A stretch of 64,000 nt of DNA from Escherichia phage vB_EcoM_DE7: sequence record OL825705.1; one strand, 5' to 3'. The position numbers and the translations under genes were made by a program. This document shows, piece by piece, positions 28,110 through 40,438 of the stretch. The stretch's first letter is position 1. Every line of letters starts with the position of its first letter. The notes beneath the pieces are model-generated. The model was not told the origin of the DNA, searched no databases, and worked only from the letters and a program-made list of their open reading frames with translations.

Positions 28110-36143
<8,034 letters not shown>

Positions 36144-36145
36144 TA

Positions 36146-37333
36146 ATGGCAGTAGGTGAAATTCAAATTAGTGCCTTGCCTCAAGCAGCCTTACCAATTG
36201 ACCTTAGTGATATCTTCCATCTTAAGCAGGGTATTGAGGATAAGAGGTGTACTCTTGAGCAATTACTTGCTCCACACTCAAGCCTAAAAAATAACCCTCA
36301 TGGTGTTACTAAAACACAAATTGGTTTAGATAATGTTATTAATGCTCTTCAGTTAGTCGCTGCAAATAACTTATCAGATATTGTTAATGTAGCTGAGGCA
36401 AGAGCAAATCTACAGATTATGTCTTCAGAAGAGGTTAATAACCTTGTTCAGCAACATATCAAGGACAAGAGTAACCCACACAATACAACTAAGGCACAGG
36501 TTGGTTTAAGTAATGTTCAGAACTGGACAACATCTAACCTGTATAATGAAGATGCAGATAAGTATGCTACAGCAAGAGCAGTAAATAATTTGTACAAGGC
36601 TGTTCAGGCTTCTTATCCAGTAGGTACTATCCATCTTTCTATGAACTCTGCAAACCCTTCTACATACTTAATTTGTGGAGGTACTTGGGAGTTGGTTTCA
36701 AAAGGTAGGGCATTGGTTGGCTATGACTCTGATACAAGGCCAGCAGGTTCTGTATTTGGTGCTTCGACTGTCACTTTGTCAGTTAATAACATGCCTCAAC
36801 ACTCCCACTCTGTATCTCTTGGTGGTGGTGGTCACACTCATAATGCAACTGTTTCAATCTCAGCTTTTGATTATGGAACTAAGACTACCAACTCTTTTGA
36901 CTATGGAACAAAGACCACTAACACAACTGGTAACCACAATCACGTTGGTAGTGGGTCAACAAGTGCTGCTGGTGCTCACAACCACAGATTGACTTATGAA
37001 GCAGGTGGTGGTCTGTCGGAAAGACCTGCAATGGTTTGGTCTACAAGGAATGACCAATCGTGGTACTCATCAGATGCTGTCTGCGAAGTCGCTGGCTCGC
37101 ACACCCACTCTTTTAGCGTTACCACTAATACAACTGGTAACCATAATCATACGGTGGGTATTGGTGCTCATAGTCATACAGTTGGTATTGGTTCACATAC
37201 GCACAACGGTACTGTGACAGTTTCTTCTTCTGAGCATACACATAGCGGAAACACTAATAGTGTTGGTGGTGGGCAAGCTTTCAACATTGAGCAGCCATCC
37301 TTCGTACTGTATGTATGGCAGAGAACAGCTTAA
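36146..37333 (+). CDS. tail fiber protein with C-terminal His-rich HxH repeat domain
   Basis: Repeated HxH motifs (GNHNHVGSG...[40 protein letters not shown]). Confidence 0.7.
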   Translation: MAVGEIQISALPQAALPIDLSDIFHLKQGIEDKRCTLEQLLAPHSSLKNNPHGVTKTQIGLDNVINALQLVAANNLSDIVNVAEARANLQIMSSEEVNNLVQQHIKDKSNPHNTTKAQVGLSNVQNWTTSNLYNEDADKYATARAVNNLYKAVQASYPVGTIHLSMNSANPSTYLICGGTWELVSKGRALVGYDSDTRPAGSVFGASTVTLSVNNMPQHSHSVSLGGGGHTHNATVSISAFDYGTKTTNSFDYGTKTTNTTGNHNHVGSGSTSAAGAHNHRLTYEAGGGLSERPAMVWSTRNDQSWYSSDAVCEVAGSHTHSFSVTTNTTGNHNHTVGIGAHSHTVGIGSHTHNGTVTVSSSEHTHSGNTNSVGGGQAFNIEQPSFVLYVWQRTA

Positions 37334-37379
37334 TTTCTTTACAGGGGCTTTATAGCCCCTTTTAAGAGGAAAATTTATA

Positions 37380-39755
37380 ATGGCAGATTACAAGTTGAGT
37401 GAATTAAACTCAATCGACACAATCCGTTCAGACGACCTTCTTCATGTCAGAGTTAAAAAGAGACCTGAAATGCTGGGTGATGAAGACCGTCGAATGACCT
37501 ATCAAGACTTCTTAGCGTCTTTTAAACTTGAAAGATTTGTTCAGATTGCTGGTAGTAATATGACAGGTGACTTAGGGATTGTTAAGCTACTTTATGGCGG
37601 TAAGGCAGTATTTGACCCAACAGACTCTTCTGAGATTAGTATTGGGGATGTTTTAAAGACTTTTAAAATTAACGCAAATGGTCTTAAACTAACTATTGCA
37701 GATGCTTCAAGGTCGGCAACTGTTTACCATACTCTGAATAAACCAAGTCCTAATGAGCTTGGGATGAGAACTAATGAACAGAATGATGCAAGGTATGCAA
37801 GGCTAAGCGTTGGTAATACATTTAAAGCTAAACAGATTATCACAGTAGATGGTGAAGCATTAGCACTTAAAAATACTTCTGATATGCCATCTTTATATAT
37901 TAGAGGTAAAGATTCAGGAGATAGATTAAAGTGGTACGTTGGATTTAACACAGAAAATAAACTTGGTTTATCTAATAGTGTTACTGGTACAACACTACTA
38001 TTAGATGATACCGGTATTAACTCAAATAAAAATCTAAATATCACTGGTCAGGTTAAACCCTCTGATTGGTCTAACTTAGATGCTAGATATTTTACTCAGA
38101 CAGTAGCTAATCAGAGATTTGCACAGTTAGCTGGGAATAACACTTTTAGTGGCACTAATACGTTTAAAAAAGATGTTATCTTTAACTCAGATGTTCCGGT
38201 TGTTCTTAAGAACTTAACAGCTAATAAACCATTGTATATTCAGGGTAAGGATTACCAGAATACTAGTTTGTGGTTTGTTGGTAAGGGTGGAACTGGTACT
38301 GAGATTAAATTTTATAACTATGCGACTGATACAGTTTTAGAGTTGTCTGAGACGGCTAGATTTAATAAAACTTTGAAGGTTACTGGACAGGTTCAACCGT
38401 CTGATTGGGCTAACATTGACTCTAGATACATTCCAGCAGCAACTTTAAGTACTCTTGCAAAAATTAATGCTAAGAATACTTTTTCTCAAGGTCAGATTAT
38501 TAAGGTTGACGGAGAGGGTATTAGACTTCAGGGGGTAAATGATACTGGTGGTTTGTTCTTGCGAGGTTATACTTCTGATGGTACTAAGAAGTGGTTTATG
38601 GGTACTAATGCTTCAGGTAACTTCACTATCAGGGAGATGGTGCTAGGCACTGAACTGTCTCTTAGGGAGAACTATATCCAGTTTAATAAGAATGTAACAA
38701 TTAATGGGCAGGTTCAACCATCCGACTGGGCTAACCTAGATGCTAGATACTATACAGGTTCAGCAGCAAATGCCAGATATATGTATGCGGAAAGAACTGG
38801 TGAAGGTGCTGATGAGGGTGCTATTGCTTGGAATGCTAAGACAGGAGTATATAATGTCAAGACGGGAGCCGCATCATCAAATCTTGTACTTCAGTTCTAT
38901 CAGGGGTCGGGGTCTATCCCATCTACGCCATCTGCGCAGCTAAGATTTAAATGGGCGAATGGTGGTATGTGGTATAGGACATCAAGAGATGGTAATGGCT
39001 TTGAGAAAGGTTGGTCTATGGTGTACACAACTGCACAGAAGCCAACCCCTTCAGATATTGGTGCATATACTAAAGCAGAAACTGACCAGAAAATTGCAAC
39101 AGCAATTAGTGACTCTACAGACCTGAATAAAATCTATCCAGTAGGTATTGTAACGTGGTTTAACAGTAATGTTAACCCTAATACAGCACTCCCTGGTCTA
39201 ACTTGGACGTACCTGAATAATGGTGTTGGCAGAACTATTAGAATTGCAGCAGCAAATGGTTCAGATGTTGCTACAACTGGTGGTTCAGATTCTGTAACGT
39301 TATCTGTTGGTAACTTACCTTCACACACACACAGTTTCTCTGCTACCACTTCATCATTTGATTATGGTACGAAGGGCACTAATAGTACTGGTGGACATAC
39401 TCACTCTGTAAGTGGTACAACAAGTGCTGCTGGTAACCATGCTCACCACTTAGGTCTACTATTGGTTAATGGCGGTGATGCTCAGTACGGATATACCACT
39501 ATTGGTAACAGCAAGACAAGAACTCTTGACTGGCTTGATAGAAGAGATAACAAGTTCCCTAACACTAACACAACTGGTAACCATACACACACATGGTCTG
39601 GTACTACAAGCGGTGCTGGTAACCATTCCCACTCTGTAGGCATTGGTGCTCACAGCCACACAGTTAGTGGTAACACTGGTAGTACAGGTTCTGGTTCAGC
39701 ATTTAGTGTTACTAACCAGTTCTATAAGTTAATGGCTTGGGTAAGAACTGCTTAA
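37380..39755 (+). CDS. tail fiber protein (791 aa) with three internal repeats and C-terminal His-rich HxH domain
   Basis: Repeats containing GQV(K/Q)PSDW(S/A)N(L/I)D(A/S)RY; C-terminal HxH motifs paralleling 36146-37333. Confidence 0.7.
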
Positions 39756-39834: not shown

Positions 39835-40032
39835 ATGCCTACAATCCTAGCAATTCTTCTAAAAAATCTAGGTAGCTTCTTCTGGAAACTCATTTTATCC
39901 CTTCTAAGTGAATACATGATTGAGAAAGTGTTCTTTAGGCTTGCAAGATACCTTGCGAGTAAAACAGACACACCTATTGATGATGAGTTCGTAGATAACT
40001 TAGAAAAAGCTTTTAAGGGGGAGAATAAATGA
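39835..40032 (+). CDS. small membrane protein (65 aa)
   Basis: N-terminal TM helix; overlaps next ORF start. Confidence 0.4.
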   Translation: MPTILAILLKNLGSFFWKLILSLLSEYMIEKVFFRLARYLASKTDTPIDDEFVDNLEKAFKGENK

Positions 40033-40400
40033 AGTGGCTAGAGGAGGCTTTTAAAAATAATATTGGTGCAATTGTAGTTGGTATTCTTAGTGTTATTGGG
40101 ATGTATACCACCATGCAAGTTTCGGAAGGTAAACAAGAAGTGTCTATCACAACAAAATTACAGCAGTTAGATAATTATTCCAAAAGTAATTATTCAGCTA
40201 TTCGTGATTTACAGTCTGATATGAGGCTGCTTCAGCTAGGGATGGAGAACCAGAAAGTCCAGTTAGAGAATGTTAAGGGTGAGAACGCAAAACTTACTAA
40301 AACCCTTGATAAATTCTCTGACAGTGTGAACAATCTGGCTCAATCAGTATCAGCCCTCCAAGCTATTACTGAAAAGAACACAAAGAATACTGAAAAGTAA
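40029..40400 (+). CDS. membrane-anchored coiled-coil protein (123 aa)
   Basis: TM helix IGAIVVGILSVIGMYTT followed by helical heptad-like region. Confidence 0.4.
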   Translation: MKWLEEAFKNNIGAIVVGILSVIGMYTTMQVSEGKQEVSITTKLQQLDNYSKSNYSAIRDLQSDMRLLQLGMENQKVQLENVKGENAKLTKTLDKFSDSVNNLAQSVSALQAITEKNTKNTEK

Positions 40401-40405
40401 AATTT

Positions 40406-40438
40406 AAGGCTCCTTTTTACGGGAGCCTTTTTTGTTTT
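40406..40438. terminator. bidirectional rho-independent terminator between convergent gene blocks
   Basis: AAGGCTCC-TTTTTAC-GGGAGCCTT hairpin flanked by A-run and T-run. Confidence 0.75.

What the first reader, a model, noticed from the sequence alone, without database searches (positions are those of the whole stretch)
36146..39755. Two tail fiber genes share a C-terminal His-rich HxH module; the larger one has an internal triplication
Both proteins end with arrays of HxH motifs (GNHNH, GSHTHS, GAHSHTVGIG) and similar termini (...YVWQRTA and ...MAWVRTA). Such motifs are known from metal-binding receptor-binding tips of T4 fibers. In 37380-39755 a roughly 105-aa unit containing GQV(K/Q)PSDW(S/A)N(L/I)D(A/S)RY is repeated three times. 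The shared module is a plausible substrate for recombination and host-range change.
Basis: partly seen in the sequence, partly recalled or inferred. Interest (0 to 1): 0.5.

Follow-up and report, generated by a model that had tools for sequence, protein, structure and literature searches.

The report
Felix O1-type phage tail fibre pair
These are the short and long tail fibre genes of a Felix O1-like phage, both ending in the histidine-rich receptor-binding tip known from phage T4; this architecture is already published for the genus, so the finding is real but ordinary.

Summary
ORF 36146-37333 (395 aa) and ORF 37380-39755 (791 aa) share a homologous C-terminal module (37% identity, E 3e-28). 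It carries 9 and 6 HxH motifs, which no shuffle reached. Both match the solved T4 gp37 receptor-binding tip (2XGF; E 3e-26 and 2e-21). The larger protein holds three homologous 107-113 aa units (33-41% identity; profile E 1e-37 to 1e-49), which Pfam calls gp37_trimer x3.

The window is a Felixounavirus. The two upstream genes match Bas63 baseplate chains in PDB 9NDY, so these are the short (STF) and long (LTF) tail fibres. The shared gp37-like tip was reported in 2015 (VpaE1). The HxH needles and repeated shaft domains were reported in 2025 (Bas63 cryo-EM).

Recombination between the two paralogous tips is not supported: DNA patches are at most 81 nt at about 75% identity, and no STF/LTF tip pair exceeds 53% identity. 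What the data show is allelic cassette exchange between phages. Breakpoints lie in the conserved His boxes and in the repeat linkers. In relatives, repeat cores also move between positions 1 and 3.

Verdict: already known, low interest.

The parts
34978..35841 (+). Baseplate wedge protein 1. Context gene that anchors the synteny with Bas63.
   Evidence: E 1e-181 to PDB 9NDY chain 'Wedge protein 1 (gp024)', matching query residues 3-287. The real start is probably the ATG at codon 3.
35841..36143 (+). LTF platform protein (100 aa), the attachment point of the long fibre on the baseplate.
   Evidence: E 1.2e-63 over its full length to PDB 9NDY 'LTF platform protein (gp025)'. Also phrog_4141.
36146..37333 (+). 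Short tail fibre (STF) gene, 395 aa. Positional counterpart of Bas63 gp26.
   Evidence: ORF. phrog_2097 tail fiber, E 2e-137. Pfam Gp10_C 67 bits. PDB 2XGF E 3e-26. Lies directly after the gp024/gp025 homologues.
36146..36613 (+). STF N-terminal part (aa 1-156): baseplate-binding region plus helical segments. Contains two copies of the motif NPHxxTKxQxGLxNV (aa 50-64 = 36293-36337; aa 110-124 = 36473-36517).
   Evidence: 69-85% conserved among 72 homologues. Motif copies located. Helices predicted at aa 67-106 and 138-156.
36614..36790 (+). STF collar domain (aa 157-215), T4 gp10 C-terminal / gp37 collar type.
   Evidence: Pfam PF21939, stretch aa 154-261. Aligns with T4 gp10 chains 2FKK and 5HX2 and with the 2XGF collar. 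This part of the model has pLDDT 83-89.
36791..36985 (+). STF needle, descending arm (aa 216-280), with HxH at aa 219, 230, 264 and 278. Includes a 30-nt tandem duplication (36864-36922) that encodes FDYGTKTTN twice.
   Evidence: The HxH at 230, 264 and 278 align with T4 HxH motifs. The one at 219 has no T4 counterpart (alignment).
36986..37099 (+). STF head domain (aa 281-318), the hypervariable putative receptor-contact tip.
   Evidence: Only 26-33% conserved, with indels, among 72 homologues. DNA identity is 33-47% to Alf5 and REP8 but 83-100% to LF82P2, P54 and LMP34. pLDDT below 50.
37100..37330 (+). STF needle, ascending arm (aa 319-369; HxH at 319, 333, 342, 351, 364) and the C-terminal strand that returns to the collar (aa 370-395). 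Includes a 27-nt tandem duplication (37142-37199) that encodes HxHTVGIG units.
   Evidence: The HxH at 319-351 align with four T4 HxH motifs and the one at 364 is extra. The C-terminal 15 residues are 80% conserved.
37380..39755 (+). Long tail fibre (LTF) gene, 791 aa. Positional counterpart of Bas63 gp27.
   Evidence: ORF. phrog_4277 over its full length, 1269 bits. Pfam gp37_trimer x3, gp37_C and Gp10_C. PDB 2XGF E 2e-21 and 8JU3 E 4e-22.
37380..37799 (+). LTF conserved N-terminal region (aa 1-140), the presumed baseplate-binding domain.
   Evidence: 88-100% conserved among 119 homologues. At least 90% identical in 205 of 259 phage records.
37770..38093 (+). LTF repeat unit 1 (aa 131-238): variable beta core (aa 141-220) plus conserved linker [15 protein letters not shown] (aa 223-237).
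   Evidence: The core is 34-50% conserved and the linker 87%. None of the five compared genomes carries this core (54-73% nt identity).
38094..38432 (+). LTF repeat unit 2 (aa 239-351): variable core (aa 258-335) plus linker [15 protein letters not shown] (aa 336-350).
   Evidence: The core is shared only with LF82P2 (79-91% nt identity), bounded by linkers 1 and 2.
38433..38753 (+). LTF repeat unit 3 (aa 352-458): variable core (aa 361-440) plus linker [15 protein letters not shown] (aa 443-457).
   Evidence: The core is shared only with Alf5 (93-94% nt identity). A profile of this region also matches the T7 gp17 fibre (4A0T, E 2e-5).
38754..39059 (+). LTF gp37_C-type domain (aa 459-560), a fourth exchangeable module just above the collar.
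   Evidence: Pfam PF12604, 58.5 bits. Mu fibre S, 8JU3, E 4e-22. 31-62% conserved. Replaced by a larger domain that gives no PF12604 hit in the 851-854 aa variants.
39060..39314 (+). LTF collar domain (aa 561-645).
   Evidence: Pfam PF21939, 27.0 bits, exactly at the cutoff. 93-100% conserved. 94-99% identical even in phages whose needle differs.
39315..39449 (+). LTF needle, descending arm (aa 646-690): HxH at 649, 673 and 687 (HAHH). Contains a run of 21 residues identical to T4 gp37 ([21 protein letters not shown]).
   Evidence: and the alignment.
39450..39581 (+). LTF head domain (aa 691-734), variable across the genus.
   Evidence: 13-47% nt identity to Alf5 and REP8, but 80-100% to LF82P2, P54 and LMP34. 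Across the phage collection only 112 of 330 matching records cover at least 80% of the tip query.
39582..39752 (+). LTF needle, ascending arm (HxH at aa 735, 749, 758) and the C-terminal return strand (...[11 protein letters not shown]).

Best explanation
The two genes encode the short (STF) and long (LTF) tail fibres of a Felixounavirus, a Felix O1-like myophage. They sit directly after the baseplate wedge and LTF-platform genes.

Each fibre is presumably a homotrimer. Its C-terminus forms a T4 gp37-type receptor-binding tip with three parts:
- a collar domain;
- a six-stranded needle, in which the chain runs down one arm and back up the other;
- a small head at the turn.

Each HxH motif, contributed by all three chains, would give six histidines that coordinate one metal ion (Fe2+ in T4) on the needle axis. 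That predicts up to 9 sites in the STF and 6 in the LTF. The metal stack rivets the needle together. The variable head, and possibly other variable modules, contact LPS.

The LTF carries four further modules between its conserved N-terminal anchor and the tip: three homologous beta-domain units and a gp37_C-type domain.

Diversity arises by homologous recombination between phages. Conserved segments (the repeat linkers, the collar and the His boxes) serve as crossover sites. Anciently diverged variable cassettes (three repeat cores, the gp37_C-type domain and the two heads) are reassorted.

Shown here: homology, domain layout, the mosaic pattern and its breakpoints.
Inferred from T4 and Bas63: trimerisation, metal binding, and which module binds the receptor.
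For: Identity of the genome:
- 236 phage records match, nearly all Felixounavirus or Felix O1-like.
- The upstream genes match Bas63 baseplate chains gp024 and gp025 in PDB 9NDY.

Tip homology:
- STF aa 146-367 aligns to 2XGF at E 3e-26. Seven of its HxH motifs are in register with the seven T4 motifs, and two more lie at the collar-proximal ends.
- LTF aa 642-771 aligns to 2XGF at E 2e-21. Five motifs are in register, one is offset, and the seventh T4 motif is absent.
- Both proteins hit the Pfam collar domain.

Variable head between conserved arms.

Repeats: Pfam gp37_trimer x3, 176 bits; hhalign E 1e-37 to 1e-49.

Mosaicism:
- Each module has its own nearest relative among five genomes. Identity switches fall at the linkers and in the His boxes.
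- 70 distinct module combinations occur among 120 LTFs. All four combinations of two variant types (a sign of recombination) are found for every pair of the four internal modules.
- Where two phages share a cassette, dN/dS is 0.0-0.4. Where they carry different cassettes, dS exceeds 1. The cassettes are therefore old alleles that have been reassorted, not products of hypermutation.

Literature:
- PMC12609058 (Bas63 cryo-EM) describes the STF gp26 and LTF gp27, both with a gp37-like collar, HxH needle and head, and five beta-helix repeat domains in the LTF.
- PMC4690856 (VpaE1) reports that both fibre C-termini are homologous to the T4 gp37 adhesin and that the middle of the LTF is highly variable.
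Against: - No trimer or metal site could be modelled here. AlphaFold2 monomers were poor (pLDDT 66 and 49), and the STF model gave no significant fold match.
- The LTF collar hit sits exactly at the Pfam cutoff (27.0 against 27).
- The receptor-contact role of the head is taken from T4. In Bas63 the STF head is seen docked on the sheath. Host-range-associated variants in one Felixounavirus LTF were reported at aa 497 and 534 (PMC6669636). If the numbering is comparable, that is the gp37_C-type domain, not the tip.
- My set of 120 LTF homologues is biased towards proteins that share this window's tip (searches compared).
- I could not compare directly with the Bas63 gp26/gp27 sequences.
Confidence: 0.88

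Rival explanations
1. The His-rich regions are unrelated low-complexity sequence that resemble each other by composition alone.
For: The regions are rich in G, S, T and H. BLAST's low-complexity filter may have truncated some tblastn matches.
Against: - Composition-adjusted BLASTP gives E 3e-28 over about 240 residues, including the non-His collar and the C-terminal strand.
- Both proteins match 2XGF independently, with HxH motifs in register.
- Shuffles never reach the observed HxH counts.
- The HxH histidines are invariant or nearly invariant in 51- and 63-sequence alignments.
Confidence: 0.01
2. One reading: the two tips within one genome recombine with each other (gene conversion between the STF and LTF), and this moves receptor specificity from one fibre to the other.
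For: The modules are homologous and lie 2.4 kb apart in the same orientation. Short patches of 73-78% nt identity exist, with a 21-nt exact match. Phage recombinases can use short homologies (general knowledge).
Against: - The tips are only 37% identical in protein within this genome.
- Across 121 x 121 tips the best STF-orthologue to LTF pair is 53% identical.
- A direct-repeat crossover would delete the N-terminal 580 aa of the LTF and is not seen in any of the six loci examined.
- The two tips differ in needle length, with 9 against 6 HxH motifs.
Confidence: 0.05
3. Host range of the long fibre is set mainly by the shaft cassettes (the three repeat cores and the gp37_C-type domain), which act as lateral glycan-binding sites. 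The HxH tip head plays a lesser part. This is compatible with the main architecture and differs only in where the receptor binds.
For: - The cores and the gp37_C-type domain are the most variable parts among LTFs that share this tip (25-50% conserved, against 93-100% for the tip).
- They reassort freely.
- The gp37_C-type domain is swapped for a larger module with no PF12604 hit in the 851-854 aa variants.
- Reported LTF variants at aa 497 and 534 after host challenge (PMC6669636).
- The Sf14 authors raise binding proximal to the tip, though for the shorter fibre gp52 (PMC11821841).
- The Bas63 authors call the variability of the repeats unexpected (PMC12609058).
Against: - The LTF head is also variable across the genus.
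- Variation in shaft domains could instead reflect escape from neutralising or defence factors, or neutral drift of surface residues. Within a cassette, dN/dS is low.
- No binding data exist.
- Residue numbering in PMC6669636 was not verified against this protein.
Confidence: 0.3

Closest known systems
Bas63 (Escherichia phage JohannRWettstein) STF gp26 and LTF gp27; cryo-EM, Sci Adv 2025, PMC12609058; baseplate PDB 9NDY
   Same: - Same genus and same gene order (wedge 1, LTF platform, STF, LTF).
- Both fibres end in a T4 gp37-like collar, HxH needle and head.
- The LTF has 6 HxH motifs, one with an extra adjacent histidine.
- The LTF shaft consists of repeated beta domains separated by short helical linkers.
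- The tips and the repeat domains are the variable parts.
   Different: - The STF here has 9 HxH motifs, against 7 reported for Bas63. Nine is the commonest count in my sample (52 of 73).
- The extra histidine is HxHH here (H687, H689, H690), against HHxH in Bas63.
- The paper counts five beta-helix domains. Only three are detectably homologous by sequence here.
- I made no direct sequence comparison with gp26 and gp27.
T4 gp37 receptor-binding tip (PDB 2XGF; Bartual et al. 2010, as cited in PMC12609058)
   Same: - Collar, needle and head layout, with HxH motifs on both arms of the needle.
- 21 consecutive residues are identical between the LTF and gp37.
- The tandemly duplicated HxHxVGIG units also occur in T4.
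   Different: - The needle has 9 (STF) or 6 (LTF) motifs instead of 7.
- The fibre is a single polypeptide attached directly to the baseplate, not the distal end of a four-protein fibre (gp34 to gp37).
- No gp38-like gene is adjacent.
- The heads show no similarity to the T4 head.
VpaE1 gp74 and gp75 (Felix O1-like coliphage; Viruses 2015, PMC4690856)
   Same: Two adjacent fibre genes whose C-termini (aa 146-362 and aa 584-780) are homologous to the T4 gp37 adhesin. Conserved N-termini. The middle of the long fibre is noted as highly variable.
   Different: That paper gave no domain-level or repeat analysis. The VpaE1 LTF shares only the collar with this window's tip (aa 1-102 of the tip query at 97% identity, then it diverges, H56).
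T4 gp34 C-terminal rod (4UXE, 5NXF), T7 gp17 (4A0T) and Mu fibre protein S (8JU3)
   Same: Shaft beta domains and the gp37_C-type domain. Foldseek of the LTF monomer model gives 8JU3 E 2e-6, gp34 E 5e-4 and T7 gp17 E 2e-3. Sequence profiles hit 8JU3 and 4A0T.
   Different: The model is of low confidence (pLDDT 49), so the fold matches are only suggestive. Identities are 14-28%.

Membership tests
T4 gp37-type receptor-binding tip (2XGF: collar, needle, head) | Significant sequence similarity that spans the collar and both arms of the needle | tested here: met
   STF aa 146-367 against 2XGF residues 18-228, E 3e-26. LTF aa 642-771 against residues 100-219, E 2e-21. The LTF collar is covered by Pfam rather than by 2XGF.
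T4 gp37-type receptor-binding tip (2XGF: collar, needle, head) | Collar domain of the gp10 C-terminal / tail-collar type, N-terminal to the needle | tested here: met
   PF21939 Gp10_C: STF 67.1 bits (cutoff 27); LTF 27.0 bits, exactly at the cutoff. The STF also hits T4 gp10 chains 2FKK and 5HX2.
T4 gp37-type receptor-binding tip (2XGF: collar, needle, head) | HxH motifs on the descending and ascending arms, in register with the seven T4 motifs | tested here: met
   STF: seven in register plus two extra (aa 219 and 364). LTF: five in register, one offset, and the seventh T4 motif missing (alignments; counts).
T4 gp37-type receptor-binding tip (2XGF: collar, needle, head) | A variable head domain inserted between the two arms | tested here: met
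   STF aa 281-318 is 26-33% conserved, with indels. LTF aa 691-734 is replaced in Alf5 and REP8.
T4 gp37-type receptor-binding tip (2XGF: collar, needle, head) | Homotrimeric six-stranded needle with octahedrally coordinated Fe ions | not testable with these tools
   Only monomer AlphaFold2 was available. The STF model shows a long beta hairpin (aa 222-272 and 321-369) but has pTM 0.28, and Foldseek found no significant hit.
T4 gp37-type receptor-binding tip (2XGF: collar, needle, head) | Folding that depends on the chaperones gp57A and gp38 | not tested
   The ORFs immediately downstream (65 and 123 aa) hit only PHROG families of unknown function. The rest of the window was not screened for chaperones.
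Felixounavirus STF/LTF pair (Bas63 gp26/gp27) | Position directly downstream of wedge protein 1 and the LTF platform protein | tested here: met
   E 1e-181 to 9NDY gp024 and E 1e-63 to 9NDY gp025 for the two preceding ORFs. The same order is seen in five annotated relatives.
Felixounavirus STF/LTF pair (Bas63 gp26/gp27) | Direct sequence orthology to Bas63 gp26 and gp27 | not tested
   The fibre chains are not in the PDB sequence set. My guess at the Bas63 accession returned a different phage.
Pfam PF20744 gp37_trimer repeats | Score above the gathering threshold, in multiple copies | tested here: met
   176 bits against a cutoff of 21.7, in three stretches. The units are mutually homologous.
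Pfam PF12604 gp37_C | Score above the gathering threshold | tested here: met
   58.5 bits against a cutoff of 22.5, at aa 480-580. The same region matches Mu fibre S (8JU3) at E 4e-22.

The most novel reading that the evidence does not exclude
The long fibre may be a combinatorial, multivalent adhesin. On this reading its three repeat cores and the gp37_C-type domain are lateral receptor-binding (glycan-binding) cassettes. They are shuffled between phages and even between repeat positions. A position-1 core in some phages is 91% identical to a position-3 core in others, and one relative carries near-duplicate cores at positions 1 and 3 (88% nt identity). The conserved GQVxPSDWxNxDxRY linkers would act as built-in crossover sites. 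Host range in Felixounavirus would then be encoded along the shaft at least as much as in the HxH tip.
Probability: 0.25. Interest if true: 0.5.

Novelty: already known. Interest (0 to 1): 0.15.

Why it matters
Felix O1-like phages are used for Salmonella typing and for biocontrol of Salmonella and E. coli, so knowing which fibre modules set host range has practical value.

The architecture flagged here is already in the literature. The shared T4 gp37-like tip was reported in 2015 for VpaE1. The HxH needles and the repeated shaft domains were shown in 2025 in the Bas63 cryo-EM work. The finding adds no new biology.

What this analysis adds for the locus:
- Module boundaries in window coordinates.
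- Evidence that crossover points lie in the His boxes and the repeat linkers.
- Evidence that the cassettes are old alleles under purifying selection.
- The observation that, in relatives, repeat cores can move between positions 1 and 3.

That map could guide the design of chimeric fibres.

Tried and rejected
1. AlphaFold2 monomer of the STF (63-sequence alignment) gave pLDDT 66 and pTM 0.28. Foldseek against the PDB gave nothing below E 0.17. A monomer of an intertwined trimer is uninformative.
2. AlphaFold2 monomer of the LTF gave pLDDT 49. Only the three repeat cores reach 70-88. Foldseek hits to Mu S, T4 gp34 and T7 gp17 are weak. They are mixed with OspA single-layer beta-sheet matches, probably artefacts of a monomer modelled as extended beta-sheet.
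3. Tandem Repeats Finder does not detect the 339/321-nt triplication. It finds only two small duplications in the STF needle.
4. I looked for a fourth or fifth sequence-level repeat. LTF aa 40-140 and aa 459-565 show no profile similarity to the three units. The paper's five domains may be similar only in structure.
5. My guess at the Bas63 GenBank accession (MZ501108) returned Bas27, a T5-like phage. I abandoned the direct comparison with gp26 and gp27.
6. A literature search for 'His boxes' + gp37 + recombination found nothing in the held library. The parallel with Tetart et al. (J Mol Biol, 1996 and 1998) therefore rests on my own knowledge.
7. My first impression that the LTF tip is conserved (93-100%) was an artefact of using the top-scoring homologues. 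An unbiased tblastn shows that many genus members keep only the collar.
8. Hypermutation as the source of cassette diversity is rejected. dS is saturated between different cassettes, and dN/dS is low within a cassette.
Full report
**What is in the sequence.** The quoted motifs and termini are all present. The smaller protein has nine HxH motifs, all between aa 219 and 364. The larger has six, between aa 649 and 758, and one of them is HAHH. None of 5000 composition-preserving shuffles of the C-terminal segments reached these counts (means 1.6 and 1.0). Composition-adjusted BLASTP aligns aa 157-395 of the smaller protein with aa 586-791 of the larger at 37% identity, E 3e-28. The alignment includes histidine-poor parts: the YPVG...W collar and the C-terminal strand. 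The stated refutation, unrelated low-complexity sequence, therefore fails.

**The triplication.** The motif GQV(K/Q)PSDW(S/A)N(L/I)D(A/S)RY occurs at aa 223, 336 and 443 of the larger protein, with spacings of 113 and 107 aa. The three units are 33-41% identical pairwise. As profiles they match each other at E 1e-37 to 1e-49. Pfam recognises them as three copies of PF20744 gp37_trimer, at 176 bits. Their DNA has diverged: only the 65-69 nt linkers still align, at 77-80%, and Tandem Repeats Finder misses the array.

**What it is.** The region matches 236 phage records, almost all of them Felix O1-like (Felixounavirus). No record covers the whole query at more than 95% identity. The two ORFs upstream match chains of the Bas63 baseplate structure 9NDY: wedge protein 1 (gp024, E 1e-181) and LTF platform protein (gp025, E 1e-63). 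By synteny the two genes correspond to Bas63 gp26, the short tail fibre (STF), and gp27, the long tail fibre (LTF).

Both proteins match the crystal structure of the T4 gp37 receptor-binding tip (2XGF), at E 3e-26 and 2e-21. Both carry the gp10-type collar domain, although the LTF sits exactly at the Pfam cutoff.
- In the STF alignment, seven HxH motifs are in register with the seven T4 motifs. Two more, at aa 219 and 364, extend the needle at its collar end.
- In the LTF, five motifs are in register, one is offset, and the last T4 motif is missing.
- The LTF shares a run of 21 residues identical to T4 gp37.

The LTF also has a gp37_C domain (PF12604) at aa 480-580, which matches the Mu fibre protein S (8JU3).

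**How it most likely works.** In T4, each HxH motif from the three chains of the trimer supplies six histidines that bind one iron ion on the needle axis, and the head at the turn of the chain contacts the receptor. This is stated in PMC12609058, citing Bartual et al. 2010. By homology the STF would hold up to nine such sites and the LTF six. This step is inferred and could not be tested. AlphaFold2 monomers were poor. The STF model does show a long beta hairpin (aa 222-272 and 321-369) with an unconfident head, but Foldseek found nothing significant. In the LTF model only the three repeat cores are confident (pLDDT 70-88). They are separated by low-confidence helical linkers at the conserved motifs. 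Weak fold matches point to Mu S, T4 gp34 and T7 gp17 (the profile hit to T7 gp17 is).

**Where the variation lies.** Among 72 full-length STF homologues, the N-terminus, collar and needle arms are 60-85% conserved. The head (aa 281-320) is only 26-33% conserved and has indels. Among the 119 best LTF homologues, the pattern is:
- N-terminus (aa 1-140): 88-100% conserved.
- Collar and tip (aa 561-791): 81-100% conserved, mostly above 93%.
- Repeat cores: 25-50% conserved.
- gp37_C-type domain: 31-62% conserved.
- Linkers: 78-87% conserved.

That set is biased towards this window's tip. In an unbiased tblastn, many genus members keep only the collar at 94-99% and then diverge. The LTF needle and head are therefore also variable genus-wide, as the Bas63 paper reports.

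**Mosaic structure.** DNA comparison with five genomes shows that each module has its own nearest relative:
- Core 1 is shared with none of the five.
- Core 2 is shared only with LF82P2.
- Core 3 and the gp37_C-type domain are shared only with Alf5.
- Both heads are shared with LF82P2, P54 and LMP34, but not with Alf5 or REP8.

Identity switches occur at the repeat linkers. Within the needles they fall in the conserved FDYGTK...GxHxH and [16 protein letters not shown] boxes.

Among 120 LTFs there are 70 different module combinations. All four combinations of two variant types, a sign of recombination, occur for every pair of the four internal modules. Where two phages share a cassette, dN/dS is 0.0-0.4. 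Where they carry different cassettes, dS exceeds 1. The diversity is therefore reassortment of old alleles, not rapid mutation. This matches the recombination-at-His-boxes model proposed for T-even gp37 (Tetart et al., from my own knowledge; not found in the held library).

Exchange between the two paralogous tips is not supported.
- DNA similarity between them is confined to patches of at most 81 nt at 73-78% identity. The longest exact match is 21 nt.
- The best STF-orthologue to LTF tip pair across both homologue sets is 53% identical.

The conserved boxes serve allelic exchange between phages instead.

**A side result in relatives.** Repeat cores can change position. The position-1 core of P0168 is 91% identical to the position-3 core of P0138. 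In one metagenomic relative (L007), cores 1 and 3 of the same gene are 88% identical over 277 nt. Core 2 never crosses positions; its best cross-position identity is 51%. In the window itself the three cores are old and distinct.

**Comparison with what is known.** The VpaE1 paper (2015, PMC4690856) already reported three things: both fibre proteins of Felix O1-like phages are homologous in their C-termini to the T4 gp37 adhesin, the N-termini are conserved, and the middle of the long fibre is highly variable. The Bas63 cryo-EM paper (2025, PMC12609058) describes both fibres with collar, HxH needle and head (seven motifs in the STF; six plus an extra histidine in the LTF). It also describes repeated beta-helix domains in the LTF and variability in the tips and repeats. 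The Sf14 paper (PMC11821841) reports a long T4 gp37-like distal tip for the related genus.

Differences here are minor:
- Nine HxH motifs in the STF, which is the commonest count in my sample (52 of 73).
- HxHH rather than HHxH for the extra histidine in the LTF.
- Three, rather than five, repeats detectable by sequence.

**Verdict.** The only mildly new points are the cassette map with its breakpoints and the movement of repeat cores between positions in relatives. Whether the shaft cassettes bind receptor remains open. Reported host-challenge variants at LTF aa 497 and 534 (PMC6669636) hint at the gp37_C-type domain, but I did not verify that the residue numbering matches this protein.

Noticed in passing
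Relatives: P0168 u1 vs P0138 u3; L007 2501-4879 (units at aa 131-237 and 353-459): Repeat cores of the long fibre move between positions 1 and 3. The pair in different phages is 91% identical in protein. Within one metagenomic relative, units 1 and 3 of the same gene are 88% identical over 277 nt, which suggests recent gene conversion or duplication within the gene. Core 2 never crosses positions.
   Followed up: partly
window 36864-36922 and 37142-37199: Two small tandem duplications lie inside the STF needle. One is 30 nt x2 and encodes FDYGTKTTN twice. The other is 27 nt x2.1 and encodes HxHTVGIG units. Each copy of the second adds an HxH site, so needle length appears to change by unit duplication.
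   Followed up: partly
window 36293-36337 and 36473-36517: The STF N-terminal part carries two copies of the motif NPHxxTKxQxGLxNV (aa 50-64 and 110-124). Many otherwise unrelated PHROG tail families hit just this short stretch. It looks like a widely shared fibre motif.
   Followed up: no
Relatives P0123, P0210, P0234 (851-854 aa), aligned to window LTF aa 459-560 (38754-39059): Some long fibres carry a larger module, with no PF12604 hit and about 60 extra residues, in place of the gp37_C-type domain. They keep the same repeats and tip. This makes the position a fourth exchangeable cassette slot.
   Followed up: partly
window 39835-40032 and 40029-40400; terminator-like hairpin 40406-40429: Two small ORFs follow the long fibre gene. 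Both hit only PHROG families of unknown function. The 65-aa one has a hydrophobic N-terminus, and its homologue in L007 carries PF26925 Phage_PM2_Gpl. The 123-aa one is annotated as holin in phage P54. A hairpin that reads as a terminator on both strands separates them from the convergent thymidylate synthase gene. No fibre chaperone is evident next to the fibre genes.
   Followed up: partly
window 34978-34984: The mechanical ORF for wedge protein 1 starts at a GTG that overlaps the preceding gene. The Bas63 chain (285 aa) aligns from residue 3, so the true start is probably the ATG at 34984.
   Followed up: no
L002 (PV390658.1, Escherichia phage vB_EcoM_P54): The GenBank taxonomy line places this 88-kb phage in Straboviridae / Tequatrovirus. 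Its fibre locus is 90-100% identical to this Felixounavirus window and has the same gene order, so the record looks misclassified.
   Followed up: no
P0001/P0185 (both on an 88,295-bp contig) and P0012/P0151 (both on an 86,868-bp contig): STF proteins 96-98% identical to the window's appear to sit on the same contigs as LTF proteins only 69-70% identical. This suggests the two fibre genes assort independently.
   Followed up: no
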